Notes: generated by a model not told the origin, from the letters alone. DNA of 64,000 nt from Candidatus Omnitrophota bacterium (GCA_043821285.1 JBDRCZ010000073.1:3564-67563); one strand, 5' to 3'; shown: positions 4,297 through 60,708, counted from the stretch's first letter. Made by a program: numbers and translations.

Positions 4297-5622
4297 ACCT
4301 ATCCGCGAAATATATTCATGTTAAAGAGAATGTGCCGCAAAATATCAAGCGGAATGCAATTTTAAATATTAGCACAAATGGAGTGACGGCTTTTACCCAC
4401 GGGTTCCATAAATACCCAGCTAAGTTTATTCCTCTTATTCCACGATGGGCAATAAAAAAATATCTCAATGGAAGTAAGAACAAAACTATTCTTGATCCTT
4501 TTTGCGGATCTGGTACTACCTTAGTTGAAGGAATTTTAGCAGGGCACAACGCAATTGGTTTTGATATTGACCCATTATCTTCAATGATTTCGAAGGCTAA
4601 AACAACAAGAGTTGATGTGATTGGGCTAAATGAAGTGGCAAATTGGCTCATAAATGGAATTAAGAATAGGAAAAAAGGACTATTTAAACCCGATTGTGAA
4701 ACCATTGAGCATTGGTTCACAGACGATGCTATAAGAAAACTCTCAATAATTAGGACACTAATAAATCAAATTCCTGATAAATTCGGAACAGATAAAAAAA
4801 CAAAAGACATACAAAAGTTGCTTTTGATCTGTTTTTCTTCAATTATTAGACGTGTTTCAAATGCGGATGATGAATCACAAAAAACCTACGTATCTCATAC
4901 TAAAATTAAAGAACCCGAAGAAGTATTCGCCTTATTTCTTTCACAACTTAATCTTTTTATTGAAAGAATTTCAAGGTTTTCAGAAATTACAGATCCAAAG
5001 CTAACGAGTAAAGTTGTTTGTTCTTCAAGTATACAATCGTTGACAAAAAAAATAACAAAGCAAACCATCGATTTAGCGGTTACTTCCCCCCCCATACATT
5101 AAGGCAATTGATTATATTTATAATCAAATGGTTGAGCTATTCTGGGTTGGGGGTTTGTTTGATATGCAAACGCAGGGGAGACAAAATGTCAAGAAAAAAG
5201 ACTATATTGGTAACAAGCATTTGAAGAAAACTGAGTTCATAAATTATGATCCCTACAATAACCCATTACATATTAAGCGGTTGGATAAAAAACTTCAAAA
5301 GGTATTTGATAGCGATAAAAAGAATGGCCACAGGCATTCTTATGTAACTTTTAAATATTTTGATGATATGGAGAAGCATTTTTCAGAAATGGCGAAATGT
5401 TTAATAAAAGGTACTCATTATGTGATGGTAGTTGGAGATAGTTCAGTAAGCGAGATTTCTTTTGAAACTGCAGATTTTCTCGTTGCTTTAGCTGAGAGAA
5501 ATCAGTTTAAGGCTGTTGACAAATGGGGTTATAAAATTAAAAATCGGTATATGCGATTCGATCGAAAAGGCAGAGGCGGGATAATTGAAATTGATTGGGT
5601 GATTGATTTTGAAAAGAAATAA
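4293..5622 (+). pseudogene. second DNA methyltransferase (SPPY family), interrupted by a +1 frameshift in a C8 homopolymer (ORFs 4293..5102 and 5128..5622)
   Basis: LDPFCGSGTT motif I; the ORF ends AVTSPPIH*, immediately after the C8 run at 5086-5093. Removing one C gives TSPPYIKAIDYIYNQMVELFWV..., fusing in frame with ORF 5128..5622 into one MTase of about 442 aa. Confidence 0.8.
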
Positions 5623-5957
5623 TTTGACACTTGCCAAGTTTTATCCCAAAATTTGCATTAGAAATATTAAGCAGCAGTAACGTCTTTATAACTTAGTCGG
5701 TAAAAAAAGAATATCTGCAGCAAAAAGATACATGCAAATTTCGGGATACCAGAGTAACAAGTCTAAATCCTATACGGAGTTAGACTATCGGCCCTTCGGG
5801 CAAATTTTACCTAATGCAAAATTTGGGTTTATAGCAGTATATCTTTATTTTTACAAGTTTTACGCTCTCTCCGTCAATAAACACCGCGGTGTCCTTAAAA
5901 AATTAATCGTTTGCAGCCAAACAGTAGCGAATAGCTTATAATTTTCTAATTTATTAT

Positions 5958-5986
5958 TTGACAAAAGGACAGTTTTCGGTTAAAAT
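5958..5986 (+). promoter_or_regulatory. sigma70-type promoter upstream of the fdh operon (TTGACA-N17-TAAAAT)
   Basis: TTGACA at 5958-5963, 17-nt spacer, TAAAAT at 5981-5986; about 58 nt upstream of the ATG at 6045. Confidence 0.5.
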
Positions 5987-6044
5987 CTTACAAAAGTAAA
6001 ACATTGTTACAGTTTTCACAAACTCAGGAAGGATTGGAGTAATT

Positions 6045-7760
6045 ATGAATAAAAAAGCAATAAGCAGGATCCAGAAAATTATCGCGCAGTATCCGGATAA
6101 AAGGTCAGCTTTAATCCCGGCATTAGATGCGGCCCAGCGCGCGAATGACAATTATCTTTCAAGAGAAGATATCCGGGAAATCGCGAAAATCATGGCGATC
6201 AGTGAAAGTAATGCTTTTGGCGCGGCTACCTTTTATACAATGTTCAATACAAAACATACCGGGAAATATCATCTTCAGGTTGATACAAATGTGCCGGGGT
6301 TTTTAACCGGCGCAGATGAGATCTTTGCCTGCCTGGAAAATAAACTCAAGATAAAAAATGGTGAAACGACAAAAGACGGCCTGTTTACTTTATCAAAGGT
6401 TGAGGACCTGGCATCCTGCGGGACGTGTCCGGTTATTCAGGTGAATGATACTTATTATGAAAATCTGGACGTTGAAAAAACAGATAAATTAATCGAGGCG
6501 CTTAAAAGAGGGGAAGAACCGGAACCGGATACTTCCGCAAATTATGGTACAAAATGTGATATCCTTTTGAAAAACCGCGGGAAAAAAAATAGTACGGACA
6601 TCGCGGTTTATAAACAAGGCGGAGGTTATCGTTCTCTGGAAAAGGCGCTTAGACTAGGGCCTGCGGAAGTCGTGGAAATGGTTAAAGTTGCCATGATAAA
6701 AGGAAGAGGCGGTGCCGGTTTTCCGGCCGGGACAAAATGGGGGTTCCTGCCAAAAAATGACCCGCGGCCGGTTTATCTTATATGTAATGCTGACGAAGGT
6801 GAGCCGGGAACTTTTAAAGACCGCCAGATCATGCAGTATGATCCGCATTTACTGATTGAAGGCATGGCGGTTTCCGCATATGCTATTGGAGCAAAAACCG
6901 CGTTTATATACATCAGAGGTGAATTTAGATGGATTTCAGAGATACTTGAAAAAGCAGTTAAACAGGCAAAAGCCGATAAGAAACTGGGGCATGTTGAGAT
7001 AATCGTTCACCGCGGCGCCGGGGCTTATGTATGCGGAGATGAAACTGCTTTAATGGAGTCGCTTGAAGGAAAACGGGGAAACCCGCGGAATAAGCCGCCG
7101 TTTCCGGCAAACGTTGGATTATACGGTTGTCCGACAATTATAAATAACGTAGAAACGCTTGCCTGTATACCTTTTATTGTTGAAAGAGGTGCCGCGGCTT
7201 TTAAACAAATAGGGACAAGCGGTAATTTTGGACCGAAATTATTCGGCGTAAGCGGACATGTCCATAAACCAGGTGTTTATGAGTTTCCTTTAGGAACTTC
7301 CCTGACAGCTGTTCTTGAGGCGGCCGGAGGAGTTAAGGGCAGGATGAAAGCGGTTATTGTCGGAGGGTTATCTGTTCCGATCCTTAAATCAGAAGAGGCA
7401 AAGGGGCTGAACCTGGATTTTGATGCATGTCTTAAAGCCGGTACGATGCTTGGATCCGGCGGTGTAATCGTTATAAATGATACGACTTCAATCCCGGAGC
7501 TGGCACTTAGAACAATTAGTTTTTATGCCCATGAGTCATGCGGACAGTGCGTGCCGTGCCGGGAAGGAGCGAATCTTGTTAAAGGCAGGATGGAAAAACT
7601 GGTAAAGGGTAAAGGGACGATAACGGATATTGACCTTATTTTAGAGGTGTGTAAAAACGTTCAGGGTTTAACACTTTGTCCCTTAGGCGATGCCTTTGCA
7701 ATCCCGGTTGAAGCAATGGTATTAAAATTTAGAGAAGAATTTGAAGCTTTGGTAAAATAA
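6045..7760 (+). CDS. NAD(H)-binding diaphorase subunit, NuoE-like [2Fe-2S] domain fused to NuoF-like FMN/NAD/[4Fe-4S] domain (FdsB/HoxF-like formate dehydrogenase beta subunit)
   Basis: N-terminal thioredoxin-like ferredoxin region (ASCGTCPVIQVND); GRGGAGFPAGTKW (FMN/NADH site); ESCGQCVPCREG (NuoF 4Fe-4S motif). Confidence 0.85.
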   Translation: MNKKAISRIQKIIAQYPDKRSALIPALDAAQRANDNYLSREDIREIAKIMAISESNAFGAATFYTMFNTKHTGKYHLQVDTNVPGFLTGADEIFACLENKLKIKNGETTKDGLFTLSKVEDLASCGTCPVIQVNDTYYENLDVEKTDKLIEALKRGEEPEPDTSANYGTKCDILLKNRGKKNSTDIAVYKQGGGYRSLEKALRLGPAEVVEMVKVAMIKGRGGAGFPAGTKWGFLPKNDPRPVYLICNADEGEPGTFKDRQIMQYDPHLLIEGMAVSAYAIGAKTAFIYIRGEFRWISEILEKAVKQAKADKKLGHVEIIVHRGAGAYVCGDETALMESLEGKRGNPRNKPPFPANVGLYGCPTIINNVETLACIPFIVERGAAAFKQIGTSGNFGPKLFGVSGHVHKPGVYEFPLGTSLTAVLEAAGGVKGRMKAVIVGGLSVPILKSEEAKGLNLDFDACLKAGTMLGSGGVIVINDTTSIPELALRTISFYAHESCGQCVPCREGANLVKGRMEKLVKGKGTITDIDLILEVCKNVQGLTLCPLGDAFAIPVEAMVLKFREEFEALVK

Positions 7761-53143: not shown

Positions 53144-53611
53144 TTAAAATAAGGAAAGTTGGTTGAGAAAAGTAGTGACACTACCAGAACTTTTGTCTGG
53201 AGAAATGGATAGTGCAGTTGCCGTTAAAATTAAAATATCCTTAGTAACATTGACTGCATTTTTCGGAATAACAAGGTTTATGATAACCGCTTTTTGCTCG
53301 CCGCTATTTAACGGCCCGATGATATTTCCCTCGGGAAAAGATGTTTCCCAGTTATTTGACGATACTGCCTCCAGCCGGTAAATGCCTAAAGAATACCCGT
53401 TGTTTTTTACGGTGAAGACATATGTGAGAGTTTTTCCGGGATAGCCTGATTGGCTCTCCGGAGCAATGACCATAACCCCTGAAGTAATTTCTTTTATCGT
53501 AACCGTGACAGAGATAGAACTTGCCCCAGCAGCTAAAGCACAAGTTGGACAGGTACTAGCAATTATCAAATATATAATTAACATGCTGATAAAATTATTT
53601 CTAACAATCAT
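53144..53611 (-). CDS. small secreted beta-rich protein, paralogue of 55087..55569 and of the subtilase C-terminal domain
   Basis: Signal peptide; starts ISVTVTIKEITSG, like IVVTVTIENVSIEV (55087 ORF) and the C-terminal about 150 aa of the 1433-aa protease. Confidence 0.5.
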   Translation of the reverse strand: MIVRNNFISMLIIYLIIASTCPTCALAAGASSISVTVTIKEITSGVMVIAPESQSGYPGKTLTYVFTVKNNGYSLGIYRLEAVSSNNWETSFPEGNIIGPLNSGEQKAVIINLVIPKNAVNVTKDILILTATALSISPDKSSGSVTTFLNQLSLF

Positions 53612-53763
53612 AAAAGTTGCCTTTTTTTAAATGAGTAGACAATTTACGAAGTGTTAACTTCGCAAATTGTAGGACTATGTCCGTCTGCGAATTTAATCCG
53701 CCAGCGCTTTATGGCGGATATTCAAAGGTACCGCATAACTTATTGCCGAAGGCAATAAGTTAT

Positions 53764-54693
53764 TCATTCGAGCTTAATCCGCATGAATCGTGCCCGTCCT
53801 TCATCAGGCTCAATAAATATAAGTGCTTCCCATTTTTTATTAACATCGATACTTTTTTTCGGAATATTTATGGTCACAATTAATTCTGCGCGTTTCCCGG
53901 GTTTAATTTTTAGAGTTCTTTTATTGGTCTTAAGCCATGTTATCTCCGGTATCCAGGAGTATCCCGGAGAAGGGACAATCTGTTCGCGGGATTTATCAAC
54001 CGCGATTATCTGAGAGGTTATTTTATATTTATGGACGTTATGATCATTATTATAAATCGTAACAATGTTTTTTTGTTTTGTCCCGGATGTTAGATCTTTA
54101 AAAATAACTGTGCTTGGGACAATTCCGCATGTCCCATCGGGCGTTTCCTGTAACCCGCTTTGGCTTTCGGTTTCAAGTTGGTAACGGGGATAAACGGCTA
54201 AAGTGAGCATTTCACCTTTTTCAGCACTACCCGCAATCCCCAATGATATTGTCCAGTGCTGATTATAGTATTTTTCTTCCTGGGGTATCTTAAAATACAT
54301 GCGTACTTTTTCTCTGCTCTGCGGAGGAACCGTTACTTCATCTTTGTCAAACCAGAACCATGCCGGATCAGGTATCTCTAAATAACCTTTAAGCCACTTT
54401 TTATTACCCACGGCTGAAGGTTTGAAGGTGGTTATTTTATAGGTATGGGGCAAGTCATCTTTGTTTTCAATAAGCAGGGTAATTCCTGATTTTTCTTCAA
54501 GGTCGTAAGTTTCCCCTAATTTGACCTGTTGAATTAGCAGCCCCCCCGGCTGAACACTTAACCCCATACTTGGGGCTGCTTTTTCTTCCGCCGCATAAAT
54601 GCTATTGTAACATAAAAATAATATTAGTATTAAAAGAAATCCATTTTTCATATAATTATCCCTACATTTTTCTAAGCAACCACAGATTTTCAC
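53764..54693 (-). CDS. hypothetical secreted protein (309 aa)
   Basis: Cleavable signal peptide (LILILFLCYNSIYAAEE); no recognisable family. Confidence 0.5.
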   Translation of the reverse strand: MKICGCLEKCRDNYMKNGFLLILILFLCYNSIYAAEEKAAPSMGLSVQPGGLLIQQVKLGETYDLEEKSGITLLIENKDDLPHTYKITTFKPSAVGNKKWLKGYLEIPDPAWFWFDKDEVTVPPQSREKVRMYFKIPQEEKYYNQHWTISLGIAGSAEKGEMLTLAVYPRYQLETESQSGLQETPDGTCGIVPSTVIFKDLTSGTKQKNIVTIYNNDHNVHKYKITSQIIAVDKSREQIVPSPGYSWIPEITWLKTNKRTLKIKPGKRAELIVTINIPKKSIDVNKKWEALIFIEPDEGRARFMRIKLE

Positions 54694-54760
54694 AATTGTT
54701 ATTTTTTAGCCGCGGATTAACACTGATGAAAAACACGGATTTTTAATTATTTTTATTTTT

Positions 54761-54833
54761 AACCACAGAGAGCACTGAGTTTCACAGAGAATTTTATATT
54801 GATTTATATGCCCTCTGTGTACTCCGTGGTTTA
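54761..54833. repeat. short copy of the CACAGAG MITE-like repeat (AACCACAGAGAGCACTGAGTTTCACAGAG ... CCCTCTGTGTACTCCGTGGTTTA)
   Basis: Terminal inverted repeats matching those of the element at 13748-13974 but without the heptamer hairpin. Confidence 0.5.
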
Positions 54834-55086
54834 TTTACATTGATTTTTTCAGATAACAATCTGCGTAATCTGTCTCATCCGTGGTTACTTTTCAGTTTTT
54901 TATAACATTTTTGACAGCAGCGAATATTATACAATATTTTTTATTGTAATAACATGAATAATATTTGTTATTATCCAGCTGCTTTTAGTTTTTATACTCG
55001 ATACTCAATACGGATATTGTTACCGTGATACCTTTCTGTTCCCCGCCCCCGCAAAGGGGGCGGGGATAGTTTTAGCCAGCTGTCAA

Positions 55087-55569
55087 TTACGAAGCTGCAG
55101 CCGTAACCGTTACAGTGATTGTCTGCTGTGTGTAATCAGTAGTTGGTGATGGTGAATTAAATTCCAGTCCAAAATTGTATGAAGCACCAGACGCGAGACC
55201 TGAAGTTAACGAAACACCACCAGTTGTGATATTTGTATTGTAAGGACCACCCGCTGCGCCAAAGTCCATGGCAAACACATCCGCCCCCGCGGCAGCTCCT
55301 GCTGTCCAGGCAGAACTGTTACTTATCGCAATTGTAAGATCTTCGGTGACATTACCATTGTTAAGCGCGACACAGGGATCTTGTGTTGCAATATCACCTG
55401 CGGAAATAGTGCCGATTGGCCAGGCACTAGGAGTAACTTCAATAGAAACATTTTCTATTGTTACTGTAACCACGATTGTATCATCGGCAGCCTCTGCTCG
55501 GATTACTCCAAAACCAGCTATAAGCACCAAAGCAGTCAAACATATAAGCATTTTTTTCATTTTTTTCAC
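55087..55569 (-). CDS. small secreted beta-rich protein (160 aa), paralogue of the subtilase C-terminal domain
   Basis: Signal peptide MKKMKKMLICLTALVLIAGFGVIRAEA; VTPSAWPIGTISAGDI versus VNPNAWPVGIVAFNEI near the C-terminus of the 1433-aa protein; both end in ITVTVTA / IIVTVGA. Confidence 0.55.
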   Translation of the reverse strand: MKKMKKMLICLTALVLIAGFGVIRAEAADDTIVVTVTIENVSIEVTPSAWPIGTISAGDIATQDPCVALNNGNVTEDLTIAISNSSAWTAGAAAGADVFAMDFGAAGGPYNTNITTGGVSLTSGLASGASYNFGLEFNSPSPTTDYTQQTITVTVTAAAS

Positions 55570-55733
55570 CTCCTTTCAGTATTCATTATTCATTCGTCAT
55601 TTTTTCTATTCTCTCTCTATTTTTTTATTCCGGTTAATCCGGTTTATTTTATTATTGTATTGCGTCGTGCATATTGCGTTTTTTATTTCTTTCACGCAAT
55701 ACCCAATGCTCAATACACAATACGTATTTAGAA

Positions 55734-58700
55734 CTATAATGCCTGTTCTGCTCCGACGGTTACAATTATTGCCTGTTCGCTTGTATCCGAGGTTGAAATT
55801 GGCGCTTGAAATTGAAACCATAAATCTACGGTATCACCGGGGATAATATTTGTGCCGTTTTTAGATAAAGACGGGTCCCCGAATTTATTTTCATCTGCCA
55901 CAACCGGCACACCGGAGAGAATAATATCATCGTTTTTAAATAAACTGGCTGTGGGACTATCCGAACTACCACAGAAGAGCCCACGCAAGACATAAGTTTC
56001 ACTGCCGGCTGTTACATCCGGCAGCCAGGTGGGGGCACTAAATGTTATGTTTAAAGTAAAAGTTTCATTTACTGAACCACTATTTGTTACGGTGATCGCG
56101 CTTTCTTCTGTAGATTGGGTGATTTCATTGAAAGCAACTATACCAACCGGCCAGGCATTTGGATTAACCGAGACATTTAAGACAAAAGGCGCGGTCATAA
56201 AATTTGGTACCGGGTAATTTCCACCAGCAACCTCAGACATCCATTGCTCGATTACCGAATAACTGCCTTGGGTAAAAGCCAGGATATATTCCGCCTCATT
56301 TGTTGGCAGAGCGGAGGTAGTATCATATCTTATTCTTAGCGCTTCGGCCCCAGCTTCATACCAGCAGCCAACATCTTGCAGAGAAGTAGTTAGGGGATTA
56401 GGAAAATATACCCAAGAGATTAATAGGTTATCCACGCTGTCAGCGGTTAATGAATTATCATATATGGCAACATATTTTTCTTGTTCGCCCAAGGTCTCAA
56501 AATTAGTCCAGTTATTTGGGGTTAAAGTGTTAGTTAAGGCATCGGTCCCGTTACCAATATGGTACCGGTCATCTTCAGAACTTACACCTAAACAGCCGGA
56601 AATCGGGGAAAAGATTGTTGAAATATCGTCAATGTTTAAATCAAATCCCGTGAGTTTATAGACAAGATAGTCTGCTTCTTCGGTCCGCATGTCAATAGAT
56701 ATATCAAAACTGGTTGTTGTTGTTTGTTCATGATAAACAGTATTGATTATCTCAACATTTGTGTTTATTGAGTCTTCGACGACATTCCATGGGGAGCCGG
56801 GGTTACTTCCGGCAGTATCATCTTCAAAATCTTCGGTAAAATAATGCGTTGGCCCGGAATAGATATCAAGATCATCAACATAACATAATGCGTCAAAGTG
56901 GTCTTGGTTAGGTGAGCCGGAGATCCACAGGCCGGTATCCATGTCTATCTTGCTGATATTTGCTAACGCGTTCCAGAAGTTTACATTAACTGTTTTGGGA
57001 TTGGTCATATCATCAATGTAAACAGACATCTTATCGGTGATACAGTCAAAGATGATTTTAAAATGATACCATTGGTCAGGGTTATAGGCCATGATTGTGT
57101 TTTGCACACCATTATAATAACCAATACTCCCGCTTAAAAAATAGATATCTAAGCCAGCTAATCCGGAACTATTTTTCAGCATAATATCAAATGAATCCTT
57201 ATCTATTTGGCTGCGGCAGCGTGCCCAGAATTCAAGCGTGCCCTGAGTAATCGGGCTAAAATCTGCACTTATGCGGCACCCTTTGGCACTATTATTTGTA
57301 CCAAGATCATCATCATCAAGCATGCAGGATTGCCCTCCGGGGATTGCCTTGGTTAGCTCGCTCTTTAGTGTGACTACCCCAGAAGATGAATTTTCGCCTT
57401 CAATAAACGAAAAAGAATGAAAATTAATCCCGCTTAAATTATCAGTGGTAATCTCAGCTCTGCCATTTGTATCATTATCCAAAATTCCGGTAAAATTAAA
57501 ACTGTTGCTGGCGTCTTTTTGATACAAATATAACAAAGAATTATCCGGAGGAGTTTTTCCGTCATATACCGCAATTAGGTGTTTGTTTTCTAACACATAA
57601 TCATCGTTCCCATCATTATTATAATCAAGCCGGTAGGCGGATACTCCGGTTTGTGGATAGAGGTGGAAGTGTTTTTGGGTATTTAGGATAGGCCCGGCAA
57701 CATTTATATCTGCTAAATAAACGTCCGGGGCTTGTCCGCTGCTATCCCATGAGGCGCGATAATAACCGTTTCCTTGGTCAAGCAGACTAAGTGTAGTTAC
57801 CGTGGAACCATTACTGAGTTTCAAATCTGCGGTAACATCTGCCCCGGTAAGGGGGCTGCCATCGGAAACAACATAGGCTTCAATATACACGGGATCAGTA
57901 GAGTCAAAAAATTTCTCTTCTTGAGAATATCCCGCATCCTGGTATATCTTCCCAATCAGATTATTTTCATAATTAGGGGTAAAAACTAAGGAGTACTTTT
58001 GTGGAGCCGAAGGGATGTTATAGCCATATATTTCAATTGTCCAGTTACCCGGGGTAATACTGCTGCTTACAGTGACTTGTTCGACATTATTAGTATGGTC
58101 TTCTTGGGTTTGCACGGCCGGGGCCGCCGGGTTAGCCGGGTCAAGTGTCCAGGGGTAATAACGTACATTATTCGGGTCAGTTACAATTAGGTCTAAGTCA
58201 TTAATTAGGGCAAAAGCCGCACCTTCTGTTGCGGCGGGATCATCCCAAACTAAGGTTATTTTTACCGCCATTGTCCCTTCAGGTACGTATAACGAATAGG
58301 TATCAGTAATATTATGGGAAACGTCGTCTTCAACAATACTCTGGGTTCTTAATTTATCAATCGAATCTTTAATTTGAATTCCTCCATAACCAAAGCTGTA
58401 GTCAGGACCGGTACTGCCTAAATCCTGAGCGCCATGGATTAATAGCCCTTTGATTGTCGAAGGCAGGGGGTCTTGGCCGGAGGAGAGGTTACGGTAATCC
58501 TGAATTATTAACGAGACACATCCGGAAACACAGGGTGCGGCCATTGAGGTACCATAATAGACGCCATAGTTATCCGCGGGAAAGGTAGATTTGATTCCGC
58601 CATCTCCGCCGACTTCATCACCCGGGGCAACCAGGTCAGGTTTAATTCGGCCGTCATCCATTGGTCCCCAGCCGCTAAAAATGGTCATACTATTATCATC

Positions 58701-60035
58701 AGAGTGTATTGCTCCGACACAGAGCATATTTTTTCCGGTAGACGGAGGACCAATAGTATCATAATCACCAGCAACATTATCCCGGTCATTTCCCGCAGCA
58801 AAAACAACCGAAATCCGCTTACCGTATAACCCGGTAACAATATCATCATATTCTGGCGCATCAAAGCCATAGTATCCGTAATACTGCGGATAGGCCGGCG
58901 GACCGATTAAATTATACCCCCAGGAATTCTGGGATAATTCAATCCCGTAAGTGGTAATTGCCCCTAAGTGGTCACCAATATTATTATCCCAAAGGTAGGA
59001 AACAATATCTACTTCTGGTGCCATACCTTTCCACTGAAATGCCGCACCGCCTTTAGAGGAACTTAAGGTGCCATCTCCGCCTAAAGTTCCGGCAACGTGA
59101 GTTGCGTGAGTATCAACCCCGGCACTATCAACAATAATGACCCGGCTGCCAAAATCATCATGCGTACTATCCACATCCCCACCGTCCCAAATCCCGGAAT
59201 CAACGTCTAAGCCGCTTAAATTATAAGGGGCATTTTGCACAATGTCTGCGCCAACATTTAGCCGTGAGCCGTCATTGAGTGCTTTTTTTGCTGGTCGTTC
59301 GTCAATAATCCAGCGCACAATATCTTCCTGAGCAATATCTTGTAACTTGTCAGGAAATATCGTGACCGTGAGTTGATGAGCAGATATAGATTCGTGTTTA
59401 ATCTGCGCGCCAAGTTCCATAAGAGTTATTTTTGCCTGTTCCAAAGAGACGTCTTTAAAAATTGAAACCTCCAGATTTACGCTACCGTCTTGGTTTATTG
59501 CCCAGGGAGCAATCTCCCCGCTTAAAAGAGGAGGAAATATTTTATCTTCGGCAAGAATCCGGCCAATCCAGCGGACGTTTGAATTTTTGAACTGCGCGGG
59601 CATTATCCCGCGAGGCACAGAAGCAAGCCAGCTATTATACGGGATATAATTTAGTAAATTTATCTTTGCATTTTTCAATATACCTTTTTGTTGATTATCC
59701 GGGGTATTGTGAAATTGCAGAAAAACGTGTACGCGTTCATGCGGGGAAGTGCGGATATGAGATTGAATTGTAATAGCAATATCTTCCGGCGGGGTAAATG
59801 TCCGGGATTTAAGTTGTATTTTTAATTTATCAGGCTGATTAGGATTTTTAATAAGTTTTACGGGTTTCATCGAGCCTGGTCCTGGATTTTTGAATTGCGG
59901 ATTATGTTGTTTTTGCTCAAGCCGGATTATTTCTTCTGCAGACAAATTCTGGCTATCAATAAAAAATAAAAGCAGCAGAAATACCGCTAAAAATTTAAAA
60001 ACAAATCCTATTTTTCTTGTATTAGTTTTTTGCAT
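55734..60035 (-). CDS. large secreted multidomain S8 (subtilisin-like) serine peptidase, 1433 aa
   Basis: Signal peptide; catalytic triad motifs VIIVDSAGVD (Asp), HATHVAGTLGG (His), GTSMAAPCVSG (Ser); about 900 aa of additional beta-rich domains. Confidence 0.88.
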   Translation of the reverse strand: MQKTNTRKIGFVFKFLAVFLLLLFFIDSQNLSAEEIIRLEQKQHNPQFKNPGPGSMKPVKLIKNPNQPDKLKIQLKSRTFTPPEDIAITIQSHIRTSPHERVHVFLQFHNTPDNQQKGILKNAKINLLNYIPYNSWLASVPRGIMPAQFKNSNVRWIGRILAEDKIFPPLLSGEIAPWAINQDGSVNLEVSIFKDVSLEQAKITLMELGAQIKHESISAHQLTVTIFPDKLQDIAQEDIVRWIIDERPAKKALNDGSRLNVGADIVQNAPYNLSGLDVDSGIWDGGDVDSTHDDFGSRVIIVDSAGVDTHATHVAGTLGGDGTLSSSKGGAAFQWKGMAPEVDIVSYLWDNNIGDHLGAITTYGIELSQNSWGYNLIGPPAYPQYYGYYGFDAPEYDDIVTGLYGKRISVVFAAGNDRDNVAGDYDTIGPPSTGKNMLCVGAIHSDDNSMTIFSGWGPMDDGRIKPDLVAPGDEVGGDGGIKSTFPADNYGVYYGTSMAAPCVSGCVSLIIQDYRNLSSGQDPLPSTIKGLLIHGAQDLGSTGPDYSFGYGGIQIKDSIDKLRTQSIVEDDVSHNITDTYSLYVPEGTMAVKITLVWDDPAATEGAAFALINDLDLIVTDPNNVRYYPWTLDPANPAAPAVQTQEDHTNNVEQVTVSSSITPGNWTIEIYGYNIPSAPQKYSLVFTPNYENNLIGKIYQDAGYSQEEKFFDSTDPVYIEAYVVSDGSPLTGADVTADLKLSNGSTVTTLSLLDQGNGYYRASWDSSGQAPDVYLADINVAGPILNTQKHFHLYPQTGVSAYRLDYNNDGNDDYVLENKHLIAVYDGKTPPDNSLLYLYQKDASNSFNFTGILDNDTNGRAEITTDNLSGINFHSFSFIEGENSSSGVVTLKSELTKAIPGGQSCMLDDDDLGTNNSAKGCRISADFSPITQGTLEFWARCRSQIDKDSFDIMLKNSSGLAGLDIYFLSGSIGYYNGVQNTIMAYNPDQWYHFKIIFDCITDKMSVYIDDMTNPKTVNVNFWNALANISKIDMDTGLWISGSPNQDHFDALCYVDDLDIYSGPTHYFTEDFEDDTAGSNPGSPWNVVEDSINTNVEIINTVYHEQTTTTSFDISIDMRTEEADYLVYKLTGFDLNIDDISTIFSPISGCLGVSSEDDRYHIGNGTDALTNTLTPNNWTNFETLGEQEKYVAIYDNSLTADSVDNLLISWVYFPNPLTTSLQDVGCWYEAGAEALRIRYDTTSALPTNEAEYILAFTQGSYSVIEQWMSEVAGGNYPVPNFMTAPFVLNVSVNPNAWPVGIVAFNEITQSTEESAITVTNSGSVNETFTLNITFSAPTWLPDVTAGSETYVLRGLFCGSSDSPTASLFKNDDIILSGVPVVADENKFGDPSLSKNGTNIIPGDTVDLWFQFQAPISTSDTSEQAIIVTVGAEQAL

Positions 60036-60708
60036 TCTTTTAAAAAATTTAAACCACAGAGCACATAGTGCTTACTTTTTTATCTGTCTTAATCCGTGTT
60101 TATCAGGGGTTTTATTTTTTAGCCACGGATTTGCACGGATAAAACACAAATTTTCAAATCATCCAGTTTTTCTTCGCGTCCTTCGTGCACTTAGTGGTAA
60201 AATTTTCTTTCTTTTTTTACAACAAATCACACGAGTGATTAACCATGTAGAACATATAGAACTTGTAAAATTAAACGTGTGTTTTCTATCTCTGTGCGCT
60301 CTGTGGTAAATCATTTTCCACGTGTGCTTATTTAGCTAATTTAAAATGACTTTAATTTTTATACATAAATATTATCTTATTCTCAGAACAGTACCTTAAA
60401 ACAGATAAGCTGCTTACTTAACTATAAGAACAGGTTTGATTTATTCTGCAAGAAAAGGCAGCTAAATTTACGTGAAAACATATATTTTTATACGCTACTA
60501 TAAAGTGTAGCATATAATTTGATTTTGTCAAGGAGAAGAAGGAAATTTTTATTGAAAAAATTTCCTTTTGGTTGTATACTTAATTAATATTCTTAACAGG
60601 CACGAAGATTTAAGAGAATAAAATAAATGCAATCTGAGTAATTGTAGTTGCTCTAAAAATATAGGAAAGTTTTTGACATAATCAGATACTTATTAGGACC
60701 GCAAAACT

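What the first reader, a model, noticed from the sequence alone, without database searches (positions are those of the whole stretch)
53144..60035. 1433-aa subtilase whose C-terminal domain has two stand-alone secreted paralogues in the same cluster
The last about 150 residues of the S8 protease (...NPNAWPVGIVAFNEITQS...IIVTVGA) resemble the whole 160-aa protein at 55087..55569 (VTPSAWPIGTISAGDIATQ...ITVTVTA) and, more loosely, the 155-aa protein at 53144..53611 (ISVTVTIKEITSG...). All have signal peptides and lie on the same strand with a fourth secreted protein (309 aa). A protease plus free copies of its own terminal beta-sandwich domain suggests three possibilities: substrate/cargo proteins; a dockerin-like anchoring or sorting domain; or a processed pilin/adhesin-like system. 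None matches a system I can name.
Basis: partly seen in the sequence, partly recalled or inferred. Interest (0 to 1): 0.6.

Follow-up and report, generated by a model that had tools for sequence, protein, structure and literature searches.

The report
Protease docked by strand-sharing surface module
A secreted protease in an uncultured Omnitrophota bacterium ends in a domain that its small neighbour carries whole, and this pairing, plus an Ig-like helper protein, recurs in many uncultured lineages and looks like an undescribed way of mounting enzymes on the cell surface.

Summary
The main observation holds. The last ~140 residues of the 1433-aa S8 protease are homologous to the whole 160-aa protein (hhalign probability 98.6%, E 8e-16; 83-85 bits against the family HMM). 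The 155-aa protein is not a clear paralogue. It shares the N-terminal beta-strand motif and only a weak, above-composition Ig-like similarity.

The cluster belongs to a large family with no Pfam, NCBIfam or PDB sequence match (2,653 clusters at 50% identity). Members occur in CPR/Patescibacteria, Omnitrophota, Fibrobacteria, Lentisphaerae and a Bathyarchaeia MAG. A three-part set recurs:
- a large secreted protein with a variable passenger (S8 protease most often) that ends in the domain without its first strand;
- a small protein made of the full domain plus a conserved strand just after its signal peptide;
- a PapD/WxLIP-like Ig partner (the 309-aa protein here).

The same N-terminal strand also heads unrelated bodies: CARDB-like, PKD, ice-binding-like and dockerin-bearing adaptors.

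The closest known analogues are Gram-positive WxL clusters and the tip, shaft and chaperone arrangement of chaperone-usher pili. My inference is beta-strand complementation that docks or polymerises these proteins to display the protease. This is not shown. I rate it a new variant of a known kind, of moderate to high interest.

The parts
55734..60035 (-). Large component: a 1433-aa secreted S8 subtilase. It has a signal peptide, a pro-region, the S8 catalytic domain, Ig/LamG-like spacer domains and the C-terminal docking domain.
   Evidence: ORF. Pfam Peptidase_S8 E 2.7e-35 (residues 306-551) and Sialidase-like CBM (residues 942-1036). The catalytic motifs DSGI, HATHVAG and GTSMAAP can be read in the sequence. 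The orthologue P0079/L008 (1430 aa) lies in an Omnitrophota single-cell genome.
58383..59120 (-). S8 catalytic domain of the protease (residues 306-551).
   Evidence: Pfam PF00082, 122.5 bits.
55737..56162 (-). C-terminal beta-sandwich domain of the protease (residues ~1292-1433). It is homologous to the 160-aa protein but lacks that protein's first (N-terminal) strand.
   Evidence: hhalign probability 98.6%, E 7.9e-16. HMM match covers profile positions 33-158 and scores 83-85 bits. The N-terminal-strand PSSM upstream of the domain scores -19.8, which is background level.
55087..55569 (-). Small component: the 160-aa secreted protein (157 aa in the NCBI call), made of a signal peptide, the conserved N-terminal strand and the full beta-sandwich domain.
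   Evidence: ORF, with a strong AGGAGG ribosome-binding site. The word-index search found 10 homologues and the exhaustive search found 2,653 representative clusters. AF2 mean pLDDT is 84, with the core (residues 43-159) above 90 and residues 27-42 not paired.
55456..55485 (-). N-terminal strand motif 'DDTIVVTVTI' of the small protein, directly after the predicted signal-peptide cleavage site. This is the proposed donor or connector strand.
   Evidence: It is the most conserved segment of the family: I32, V34, T35 and V36 are invariant among 10 homologues, and T35 and V36 are conserved in at least 90% of 133 members. DSSP assigns it no strand in the AF2 monomer. PSSM score 22.5.
55040..55066 (.). 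GC-rich hairpin (11 bp stem, 10 G-C pairs) 20 nt downstream of the small-protein gene. It may attenuate or stabilise the transcript.
   Evidence: inverted repeat I17. There is no T-run on the coding (minus) strand, so it is not a canonical intrinsic terminator.
53764..54693 (-). Partner component: a secreted protein with two tandem PapD-like/ASH-type Ig domains (309-aa ORF; the likely start at 54651 gives 295 aa).
   Evidence: Pfam Cep192_D7, FixG_C and fn3_5, plus a faint WxLIP_PGBD hit. AF2 mean pLDDT 91. Foldseek matches tandem ASH proteins, FimC/DraB chaperones and WxLIP structures 9i1y and 9i25_C. Its first domain is homologous to the membrane-anchored partner in CPR loci (hhalign probability 96.8%, E 2.6e-10).
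53144..53611 (-). Accessory component: the 155-aa secreted protein, made of the same N-terminal strand motif on a CARDB-like Ig body.
   Evidence: ORF. The PSSM score of 19.0 is the highest in the window outside the small-subunit family. Pfam gives weak CARDB and Ig_VWA7 hits. The orthologue is L008 11406-11867. Similarity to the domain family is weak.
53495..53524 (-). N-terminal strand motif 'ASSISVTVTI' of the 155-aa protein.
   Evidence: PSSM score 19.0, at residues 30-39, just after the AxA-type site.
54678..54886 (.). Five copies of the short motif ACCAC[G/A]GA (one mismatch allowed), in both orientations, in the intergenic DNA upstream of the partner gene. They are possible regulatory sites.
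60052..60129 (.). Three copies of the same motif (one mismatch allowed) just upstream of the protease gene.

Best explanation
The four genes encode a cell-surface display and assembly module built on a shared beta-sandwich domain.

Components:
- The S8 protease is the cargo. Its C-terminal copy of the domain lacks the first beta-strand, so it can only accept a strand.
- The 160-aa protein is the same domain plus a conserved N-terminal strand that is exposed once the signal peptide is cut. It can both donate and accept.
- The 155-aa protein carries only the donor strand, on a different Ig body.
- The 309-aa protein has two PapD/WxLIP-like domains. I propose it is the helper that caps, stabilises or anchors the incomplete domains, as WxLIP does for WxL domains and PapD-like chaperones do for pilins.

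Proposed mechanism (inferred): after Sec export, the N-terminal strand of a small subunit inserts into the strand-less domain of the protease or of another small subunit. This builds a complex or short fibre with the protease at the distal end and a donor-only protein at the proximal end.

Shown here: the homology, the conserved gene triad, the systematic absence of the first strand from the fused copies, the presence of that strand on unrelated bodies, and the PapD/WxLIP-like fold of the partner.

Inferred only: the strand insertion itself, the stoichiometry (complex versus filament), and how the assembly crosses or attaches to the Omnitrophota envelope.
For: 1. Homology between the protease tail and the small protein: hhalign probability 98.6%, E 7.9e-16; 83-85 bits against the family HMM.

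2. Conserved synteny in distant lineages. L001/L002 and L004 carry S8 protease, ~160-aa, ~293-aa and PKD-protein genes in that order. In about 30 of the 34 GTDB loci, a large protein ending in the domain lies next to a stand-alone copy.

3. The partner is conserved. The 309-aa family is homologous to the CPR ~205-aa membrane-anchored Ig protein (probability 96.8%, E 2.6e-10).

4. The fused copies lack the first strand. The PSSM median is -10.0 for 30 large proteins and +18.3 for 37 small ones; background median is -12.6.

5. The strand is portable. Among 1,289 ORFs, nearly all of the top ~45 PSSM scores are small subunits or cluster neighbours that carry the motif right after their signal peptide. 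These include the window 155-aa protein, an ice-binding-like protein in L022, and Cys-rich CPR proteins; the two exceptions are low-scoring ORFs of 70 and 297 aa (L008 11642-11854 and L031 4853-5746), and the L002/L004 PKD proteins carry the motif too but score only 2.7, below that range. In L022 the same ice-binding passenger occurs once with the C-terminal domain and once with the N-terminal strand.

6. In CPR loci the strand-bearing Cys-rich protein ends in a dockerin (9 of 13 proteins). The next gene encodes a membrane protein with a cohesin domain (7 of 9). The strand therefore sits on an adaptor whose other end is a known connector.

7. In the AF2 model of the small protein the conserved N-terminal strand is unpaired. 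The model's best PDB matches are mostly donor-strand fibre subunits: CS20 and CS17 pili, TasA, Fim, Pap and Csu subunits, archaeal bundling pili, threads and cannulae. These matches are weak (E 8e-4 to 6e-2).

8. The partner's AF2 model (pLDDT 91) matches FimC/DraB chaperones and WxLIP, including the WxLIP-long-WxL complex 9i25, at E ~1e-8. Weak sequence hits point the same way: WxLIP_PGBD in 9 of 31 members (best 3.2e-5), PapD_N in 3 of 31, FaeE chaperone E 0.058, and EfmWxLIP1 E 0.16.

9. Passengers vary (S8 in 10 of 40, C25, Gly-rich, ice-binding, LamG), as expected for a generic display module.

10. Published AF2 work on WxL clusters predicts a WxLIP strand that completes the WxL beta-sandwich (PMC10599100).
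Against: - No structure or multimer prediction of any complex could be run.
- Foldseek matches of the small-subunit model are weak (TM 0.3-0.5). Only one of the five AF2 models was confident, and the alignment held just 10 sequences.
- Some large proteins in other loci have a beta-like stretch just upstream of the domain (for example 'QIKITYP' and 'SLVITYT'). This could supply the missing strand in cis.
- One natural tandem protein (P0154) keeps a first strand on its first copy of the domain.
- The Omnitrophota partner has no membrane anchor, and no outer-membrane usher or secretin is encoded in the cluster. Export across a diderm envelope is therefore unexplained.
- The small/large domain has no detectable sequence relation to WxL, TasA or chaperone-usher pilins.
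Confidence: 0.5

Rival explanations
1. The small protein is the major subunit of a true long donor-strand-exchange pilus or fibre. The protease is the tip subunit, the 155-aa protein is the terminator or anchor, and the 309-aa protein is a periplasmic PapD-like chaperone. This is a filament-forming special case of the best explanation.
For: - Most of the top 50 Foldseek hits of the small-protein model are donor-strand fibre subunits.
- The acceptor-only, donor-plus-acceptor and donor-only arrangement matches the FimH/PapG, FimA/PapA and PapH roles.
- The small gene has a strong ribosome-binding site and is followed by a stable hairpin, as major pilin genes often are.
- The partner matches FimC/DraB (E ~2e-8), and its last domain-1 strand aligns with the G1-strand region of FaeE.
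Against: - No usher or other outer-membrane pore gene lies in the cluster. It is flanked by genes I read, by eye and without a family search, as cytochrome-c biogenesis genes and a glutaminyl-tRNA synthetase.
- The fold retains a C-terminal strand, unlike chaperone-usher pilins, which lack it.
- In CPR loci the partner is membrane-anchored and has a single domain. That looks more like an anchor (WxLIP-like) than a recycling chaperone.
- There is no direct evidence of polymerisation.
Confidence: 0.25
2. The domain is an envelope-binding or cell-wall-binding anchor that works like the WxL domain, by non-covalent attachment to peptidoglycan or another envelope polymer. The small protein and the protease bind the envelope independently. 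The Ig partner stabilises them, and the paralogues do not exchange strands.
For: - The gene triad is the same as in WxL clusters: a small domain-only protein, a large protein with the C-terminal domain, and an Ig-like partner that is membrane-anchored in monoderm CPR (PMC9772566, PMC10599100).
- The partner resembles WxLIP by fold and gives weak PF06030 hits.
- The family is enriched in CPR, which are monoderm-like organisms with exposed cell walls.
Against: - It does not explain why the conserved N-terminal strand is missing from the fused copies.
- It does not explain why that strand is grafted onto unrelated bodies, including a dockerin-bearing adaptor.
- There is no match to Pfam WxL.
- The WxL chain of 9i25 is not among the top 50 structural matches of the small-protein model.
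- In diderm Omnitrophota, peptidoglycan lies beneath the outer membrane.
Confidence: 0.15
3. The C-terminal domain is a secretion or sorting signal (like a type IX secretion CTD or a PEP-CTERM-type tag) recognised by an export machine. The small proteins are simply other cargo.
For: - The domain always sits at the extreme C-terminus of large secreted enzymes, including gingipain-like C25 peptidases.
- NCBIfam gives weak choice-of-anchor D and T hits.
Against: - The mature stand-alone proteins are essentially only the domain, so they would be a signal without cargo.
- The family is abundant in CPR and occurs in an archaeal MAG, which lack outer membranes.
- NCBIfam finds no T9SS or sortase-type signal on the protease.
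- At ~120-150 residues, with a dedicated Ig partner, the domain is unlike known sorting tags.
Confidence: 0.05
4. The small proteins are substrates, inhibitors or folding chaperones specific to the S8 protease.
For: - The genes sit next to the protease gene on the same strand.
- S8 is the most common identifiable passenger (10 of 40 large proteins).
Against: The same small protein and partner pair accompanies non-protease passengers: ice-binding-like, LamG_3, Gly_rich_2 and C25. Also, the homology is to the protease's non-catalytic tail, not to its pro-domain.
Confidence: 0.04

Closest known systems
WxL / Csc cell-surface-complex gene clusters of Firmicutes (small WxL, large WxL and WxLIP = DUF916-DUF3324-TM, sometimes with a small LPXTG protein)
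   Same: - The cluster logic is identical: a small secreted protein that is only the domain, a large secreted protein with variable N-terminal functional domains and the domain at its extreme C-terminus, and a conserved Ig-like partner (PMC9772566, PMC10599100).
- The partner here matches the solved WxLIP structures 9i1y and 9i25 by fold (E 3-4e-8) and gives weak PF06030 hits.
- In CPR loci the partner ends in a transmembrane helix, like WxLIP.
- Published AF2 models have a WxLIP strand completing the WxL sandwich, which is strand complementation.
   Different: - No sequence match to Pfam WxL in 133 small proteins or 22 fused copies, and no dual WxL motif.
- The organisms differ: CPR, Omnitrophota, Fibrobacteria, Lentisphaerae and a Bathyarchaeia MAG rather than Lactobacillales and Bacillales.
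- The Omnitrophota partner has no transmembrane helix.
- The passengers are often enzymes (S8, C25) rather than host adhesins.
- The portable N-terminal strand on other proteins, and the cohesin-dockerin adaptor, are not described for WxL clusters.
Chaperone-usher pili (Fim, Pap, Csu, CS pili)
   Same: - A two-domain tip protein whose C-terminal pilin-type domain lacks the N-terminal extension, shaft subunits with an N-terminal donor strand, and a two-Ig-domain PapD-like helper.
- The small-subunit model's best PDB hits are chaperone-usher pilins.
- The partner model hits FimC and DraB, with a weak FaeE sequence match over the G1-strand region.
   Different: - No usher gene is present.
- The fold appears to keep its C-terminal strand, and the variable element is the first (N-terminal) strand.
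- The family is widespread in monoderm CPR and occurs in an archaeal MAG, where no outer membrane exists.
- The CPR partner is a single membrane-anchored domain.
- There is no significant sequence similarity to the pilin or PapD families.
Chaperone-free donor-strand fibres: TasA (Bacillus), archaeal bundling pili AbpA, Sulfolobus threads and Pyrodictium cannulae
   Same: - Sec-secreted ~150-200-aa beta-rich subunits that donate an N-terminal strand to the next subunit. They need no usher and occur in monoderms and archaea (PMC9245690).
- These structures (8aur, 7ueg, 7pnb, 9h8b, 9bab) are among the top Foldseek hits.
   Different: - No hit to Pfam TasA/Peptidase_M73 and no dedicated SipW-type signal peptidase gene in the loci.
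- Those systems are not described with enzyme-tipped large proteins carrying a strand-less copy of the subunit, or with a PapD/WxLIP-like partner.
Cohesin-dockerin scaffolding (cellulosome-type)
   Same: It works as a modular plug-and-socket system that mounts diverse enzymes on the cell surface. In the CPR versions of this cluster, true cohesin and dockerin domains are part of the same operon.
   Different: The domain studied here is neither a cohesin nor a dockerin by sequence. The proposed plug is a single beta-strand rather than a Ca-binding dockerin. The window's own cluster has no cohesin or dockerin.

Membership tests
Subtilase (MEROPS/Pfam S8) | Match to the Peptidase_S8 profile above the curated threshold | tested here: met
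   PF00082, 122.5 bits against a cutoff of 21.8, E 2.7e-35, residues 306-551.
Subtilase (MEROPS/Pfam S8) | Asp-His-Ser catalytic triad motifs | tested here: met
   The motifs 'DSGIWD', 'HATHVAGT' and 'GTSMAAP' are in the translated sequence. I read them by eye and did not align them residue by residue to a reference.
WxL cluster (Firmicutes) | The small and large proteins carry the WxL domain (Pfam PF13731, dual Trp-x-Leu motifs) | tested here: not met
   No PF13731 hit at E<=1 appears among the families listed for 133 small proteins (25 commonest of 107) or the 21 families matched by 22 fused C-terminal copies. No PDB sequence hit to the WxL chain.
WxL cluster (Firmicutes) | Gene triad: small domain-only protein, large protein with the domain at its C-terminus, and an Ig-like partner, all adjacent | tested here: met
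   Found in the window, in L001/L002, L004, L006, L008 and L022, and in 27 CPR-type loci.
WxL cluster (Firmicutes) | The partner is WxLIP (DUF916/PF06030 + DUF3324 + C-terminal TM helix) | tested here: inconclusive
   PF06030 hits in 9 of 31 partners, best E 3.2e-5; the window protein's own hit (13.6 bits) is below the 27.3-bit cutoff. Some homologues have precomputed PF06030 hits. Foldseek to 9i1y and 9i25_C gives E 3-4e-8, no better than to other PapD-like proteins. A transmembrane helix is present in the CPR partners but absent from the window protein.
Chaperone-usher pilus | Outer-membrane usher gene in the operon | tested here: not met
   The cluster holds only the four genes described. 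I read the flanking ORFs, by eye and without a family search, as cytochrome-c biogenesis genes and a glutaminyl-tRNA synthetase. No usher-sized gene recurs among neighbours in 34 loci.
Chaperone-usher pilus | PapD-like two-domain periplasmic chaperone | tested here: inconclusive
   The AF2 model shows two beta-sandwich domains. Foldseek to FimC and DraB gives E ~2e-8. PapD_N hits in 3 of 31 partners, best E 2e-4. FaeE gives E 0.058. All of these fall below family thresholds.
Chaperone-usher pilus | Tip subunit's pilin domain lacks the N-terminal extension that shaft subunits carry | tested here: met
   PSSM for the N-terminal strand: small proteins median +18.3; large proteins' copies median -10.0, equal to background.
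Chaperone-usher pilus | Donor-strand exchange between subunits | not testable with these tools
TasA / archaeal bundling pilus family | Match to Pfam PF12389 (Peptidase_M73/TasA), with a tapA/sipW-type operon | tested here: not met
   PF12389 is not among the families listed for 133 members. No signal-peptidase gene is among the recurrent neighbours. Only a weak Foldseek hit to 8aur (E 2.7e-3).
Type IX secretion C-terminal domain | Match to T9SS CTD models on the cargo's C-terminus | tested here: not met
   NCBIfam and Pfam scans of the protease show no T9SS CTD hit. The family is also common in CPR, which I take from general knowledge (not tested here) to lack an outer membrane.

The most novel reading that the evidence does not exclude
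This is a previously unrecognised, usher-free fibre or docking system based on donor-strand complementation. It is widespread in CPR/Patescibacteria and Omnitrophota and also found in Fibrobacteria, Lentisphaerae and a Bathyarchaeia MAG. Any protein can be mounted by carrying either a strand-less acceptor domain at its C-terminus or a ~10-residue donor strand at its mature N-terminus. The small protein acts as the polymerising link, a PapD/WxLIP-like protein acts as chaperone or anchor, and in CPR a cohesin-dockerin pair ties the structure to the membrane. For these small-celled lineages (my assumption, not tested here, is that many are host-attached) it could be a main way of presenting proteases and adhesins to hosts or substrates.
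Probability: 0.3. Interest if true: 0.8.

Novelty: new variant of a known kind. Interest (0 to 1): 0.62.

Why it matters
CPR/Patescibacteria and Omnitrophota are very small cells, and from general knowledge (not tested here) many are thought to depend on other cells, so their biology likely rests on surface structures that are almost unknown. This family is large: 2,653 clusters at 50% identity, and 1,108 with E<=1e-10. It has no curated annotation, and it is organised in a conserved operon with a clear modular grammar: acceptor domain, donor strand and Ig helper. If strand complementation is confirmed, three things follow.
- It would define a new family of surface-assembly proteins that link enzymes such as S8 and C25 proteases to the cell.
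- It would extend the WxL and chaperone-usher principle well beyond Firmicutes and Proteobacteria.
- It would offer a compact, genetically encodable strand-and-socket pair for protein display.

It would also give functional names to thousands of 'hypothetical proteins' in metagenomes.

Tried and rejected
- Compositional artefact: rejected for the protease/160-aa pair. For the 155-aa protein the signal is weak but exceeds all 300 shuffles.
- Sequence links to known families: none for the small/large domain. Pfam on 133 small proteins and 22 fused copies, NCBIfam, and PDB sequence profiles gave only scattered generic Ig-like hits.
- The search for related loci with the 11-sequence alignment failed for lack of a conserved stretch. 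A tighter 7-sequence alignment worked.
- Homologues of the 155-aa protein: the word-index search returned only the protein itself. Its orthologue was found only through synteny in L008.
- A dedicated signal peptidase (SipW-like) as the conserved CPR neighbour: rejected. That neighbour is an Ig-like, membrane-anchored protein.
- The protease as a maturation enzyme for the small protein, as gingipains are for type V pili: considered unlikely because passengers vary, but not excluded.
- The hairpin after the small gene as a canonical terminator: not supported, because there is no T-run on the coding strand.
- Literature searches for a description of this module in CPR or Omnitrophota found nothing relevant.

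Full report
**What is in the window.** Four ORFs lie head to tail on the minus strand between a ResB/CcsA-like pair and a glutaminyl-tRNA synthetase gene on the plus strand; I named those flanking genes by reading the translations, not from a family search. They are:
- a 1433-aa protein at 55734..60035;
- a 160-aa protein at 55087..55569;
- a 309-aa protein at 53764..54693 (NCBI aa);
- a 155-aa protein at 53144..53611.

The small protein is 100% identical to a hypothetical protein of a Candidatus Omnitrophota MAG. The large protein is an S8 subtilase (PF00082, E 2.7e-35). It has readable Asp/His/Ser motifs and LamG/Ig-like spacer domains. All four begin with a hydrophobic, AxA-terminated leader. 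I read this from the sequence; no signal-peptide predictor was available.

**Checking the observation.** The protease tail and the 160-aa protein align by BLASTP at E 1e-5 over 49 residues. A profile of ten homologues of the small protein matches the tail at hhalign probability 98.6%, E 7.9e-16, over 119 columns. A 133-member family HMM gives the tail 83-85 bits. Homologues P0009 and P0010 of the small protein carry the same insertion as the protease tail, which bridges the two forms. So the main observation is real homology.

The 155-aa protein is different:
- Pairwise comparisons are not significant, and hhalign probability is 36.7%.
- Its mature sequence scores 13.9 bits against the family HMM, where 300 shuffles reach at most 9.8.
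- Without its N-terminal strand it scores 7.8 bits (shuffle maximum 5.8).
- Its L008 orthologue scores 19.8 and 10.5 bits.

It shares the N-terminal strand and a generic CARDB-like Ig body. It is not a demonstrated paralogue.

**The family and its context.** The word-index search found only 10 relatives of the small protein. An exhaustive HMM search of 1.84 billion representatives found 2,653 at E<=1e-3 and 1,108 at E<=1e-10. Most are 150-190-aa stand-alone proteins. Some are 900-1430-aa proteins with the domain at the extreme C-terminus, including S8 and gingipain-like C25 peptidases. No Pfam, NCBIfam or PDB sequence relative exists beyond scattered generic Ig-like hits.

A GTDB scan returned 34 loci. 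Most come from CPR/Patescibacteria. Others come from an Omnitrophota single-cell genome with a near-copy of this cluster (L008), Fibrobacteria, Lentisphaerae and a Bathyarchaeia MAG. In about 30 of these loci, a large protein ending in the domain lies directly next to a stand-alone copy. Metagenomic relatives L001/L002 and L004 repeat the order S8 protease, ~160 aa, ~293 aa, then a PKD protein. In L006 the large protein is a LamG_3 protein.

**The third component.** Clustering of neighbours shows two versions of a partner. CPR-type loci (27) encode, just downstream of the small protein, a ~205-aa protein with a signal peptide, one Ig-like domain and a C-terminal transmembrane helix. Diderm-type loci (the window, L002, L004, L006, L008, L022) encode the ~300-aa two-domain protein instead. 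The two versions are homologous over the first domain (hhalign probability 96.8%, E 2.6e-10).

AF2 models the window partner confidently (pLDDT 91) as two beta-sandwiches. Foldseek places it among tandem PapD-like/ASH proteins (E 1e-12 to 1e-9), the pilus chaperones FimC and DraB (E ~2e-8), and the recently solved E. faecium WxLIP, including its complex with long WxL (9i1y and 9i25_C, E 3-4e-8). Weak sequence signals agree:
- WxLIP_PGBD in 9 of 31 partners (best E 3.2e-5) and PapD_N in 3 of 31.
- The best PDB profile hits are the FaeE chaperone (E 0.058, over its G1-strand region) and EfmWxLIP1 (E 0.16).

**Two connectors.** The most conserved part of the small proteins is a beta-prone stretch right after the signal peptide. 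It reads 'DTITVTVT' in the Omnitrophota type and 'ATVTATVTVQ' in CPR. In the AF2 monomer this stretch is not paired with the core. The fused copies lack it. A PSSM for the strand scores a median of +18.3 upstream of the core in 37 small proteins and -10.0 in 30 large proteins, the same as background.

The strand also heads other secreted proteins in the same clusters. Among 1,289 ORFs, nearly all of the top ~45 PSSM scores belong to small subunits or cluster neighbours with the motif at the mature N-terminus; two low-scoring ORFs that fit neither description are the exceptions. These neighbours include:
- the window 155-aa protein (19.0) and its L008 orthologue (21.0);
- an ice-binding-like protein in L022 (27.0);
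- CARDB-like CPR proteins;
- Cys-rich CPR proteins.

The L002/L004 PKD proteins carry a weaker copy of the motif and score only 2.7, below that range.

In L022 the ice-binding passenger occurs once with the C-terminal domain and once with the N-terminal strand. The Cys-rich CPR proteins end in a dockerin (9 of 13), and the next gene encodes a membrane protein with a cohesin (7 of 9). There the strand sits on an adaptor whose other end is a known connector.

Passengers of 40 large proteins are varied: S8 in 10, fervidolysin-type prodomain in 5, Gly_rich_2 in 5, C25 in 2-3, plus ice-binding, LamG_3 and others.

**Mechanism.** These facts fit a plug-and-socket scheme. Large proteins carry an acceptor-only domain. 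Small proteins carry donor plus acceptor. Accessory proteins carry the donor only. A PapD/WxLIP-like partner handles the incomplete domains.

The Foldseek hits of the small-subunit model point the same way, but they are weak (E 8e-4 to 6e-2, TM 0.3-0.5). They are mostly donor-strand fibre subunits: CS20 and CS17, TasA, Fim, Pap and Csu subunits, archaeal bundling pili, threads and cannulae.

I therefore propose beta-strand complementation that docks the protease to one or more small subunits, giving a complex or short fibre. The 155-aa protein would sit at the proximal end and the 309-aa protein would act as chaperone or anchor.

The insertion itself, the stoichiometry and the route across the Omnitrophota outer membrane are all inferred.

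Points against the scheme:
- Some large proteins have a beta-like stretch just upstream of the domain.
- One tandem protein keeps a first strand on its first copy.
- There is no usher or secretin gene in the cluster.
- The alignment behind the small-subunit model is shallow.

**Comparison with known systems.** The gene-cluster logic equals that of Firmicute WxL/Csc clusters: small WxL, large protein with a C-terminal WxL domain, and WxLIP. For those clusters, AF2 predicts a WxLIP strand that completes the WxL sandwich (PMC9772566, PMC10599100). It also mirrors chaperone-usher pili, with a tip protein whose pilin domain lacks the N-terminal extension, a shaft subunit and a PapD-like chaperone.

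Membership fails on defining features. There is no WxL domain match, no usher, and no TasA-family match or SipW. The partner's relation to WxLIP or PapD is at fold level only. I found no paper describing this module.

**Verdict.** The core observation is confirmed, and the second 'paralogue' only loosely. This is best filed as a new variant of a known kind: a WxL-like or chaperone-usher-like strand-complementation display module. It belongs to a very large, unannotated family concentrated in CPR and other uncultured lineages. Interest 0.62. Confidence in the display-by-strand-complementation mechanism is about 0.5.

Noticed in passing
window 54678-54886 and 60052-60129: The short motif ACCAC[G/A]GA (one mismatch allowed) clusters in both orientations in the intergenic DNA upstream of the 309-aa gene (5 copies in ~210 bp) and just upstream of the protease gene (3 copies). 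The window holds 19 matches against 10.1 +/- 3.0 expected, and no shuffle reached 19. It may be a shared regulator-binding site for the cluster.
   Followed up: partly
window 55040-55066: A perfect 11-bp GC-rich hairpin (TCCCCGCCCCC / GGGGGCGGGGA) lies 20 nt after the stop codon of the 160-aa gene. A 390-bp AT-rich spacer follows before the next gene. The T-run is on the opposite strand, so any role as a terminator for the cluster is unclear.
   Followed up: partly
L009-L040 (CPR loci), e.g. L009 11144-12145 and 12173-14986; L010 6796-7446 and 7450-8466: In CPR versions of the cluster, two further genes follow the partner gene. The first is a Cys-rich secreted protein ('VCGNxxxExGExCD') with a Pro/Thr linker and a C-terminal dockerin. 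The second is a membrane protein with a zinc-ribbon-like segment and a cohesin domain. This looks like a cohesin-dockerin pair in Patescibacteria used for something other than cellulosomes.
   Followed up: partly
L022 2728-3966 and 6540-7169 (Lentisphaerae MAG): Two ice-binding-like (PF11999) proteins lie in one locus. One ends in the C-terminal domain. The other starts with the N-terminal strand motif. The locus also holds two tandem copies of the two-Ig partner gene (4749-5624 and 5621-6523).
   Followed up: partly
L025 2511-2753 and 2760-3902; L024 10496-10735 and 10732-11886; L011 10950-11240: Small 80-100-aa ORFs encode a signal peptide plus the strand motif ('ASSASVHVTVQV...') and sit directly before the large-protein ORF. 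In L025 the two ORFs are in the same frame, separated by a single stop codon. This could be read-through, a sequencing error or a pseudogene, in which case that large protein would carry both connectors.
   Followed up: no
L006 432-1232 (minus strand): A prepilin peptidase (A24) gene lies next to the LamG_3 protein that carries the C-terminal domain in this locus. It is probably unrelated, but it is the only secretion-related neighbour I saw.
   Followed up: no
window 55268-55846 (+) and 55381-55731 (+): Two long ORFs (192 and 116 aa) run antisense to the 160-aa gene and the protease stop region. Their low-complexity translations suggest they are artefacts of the Thr/Val/Ala-rich coding strand rather than genes.
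   Followed up: no
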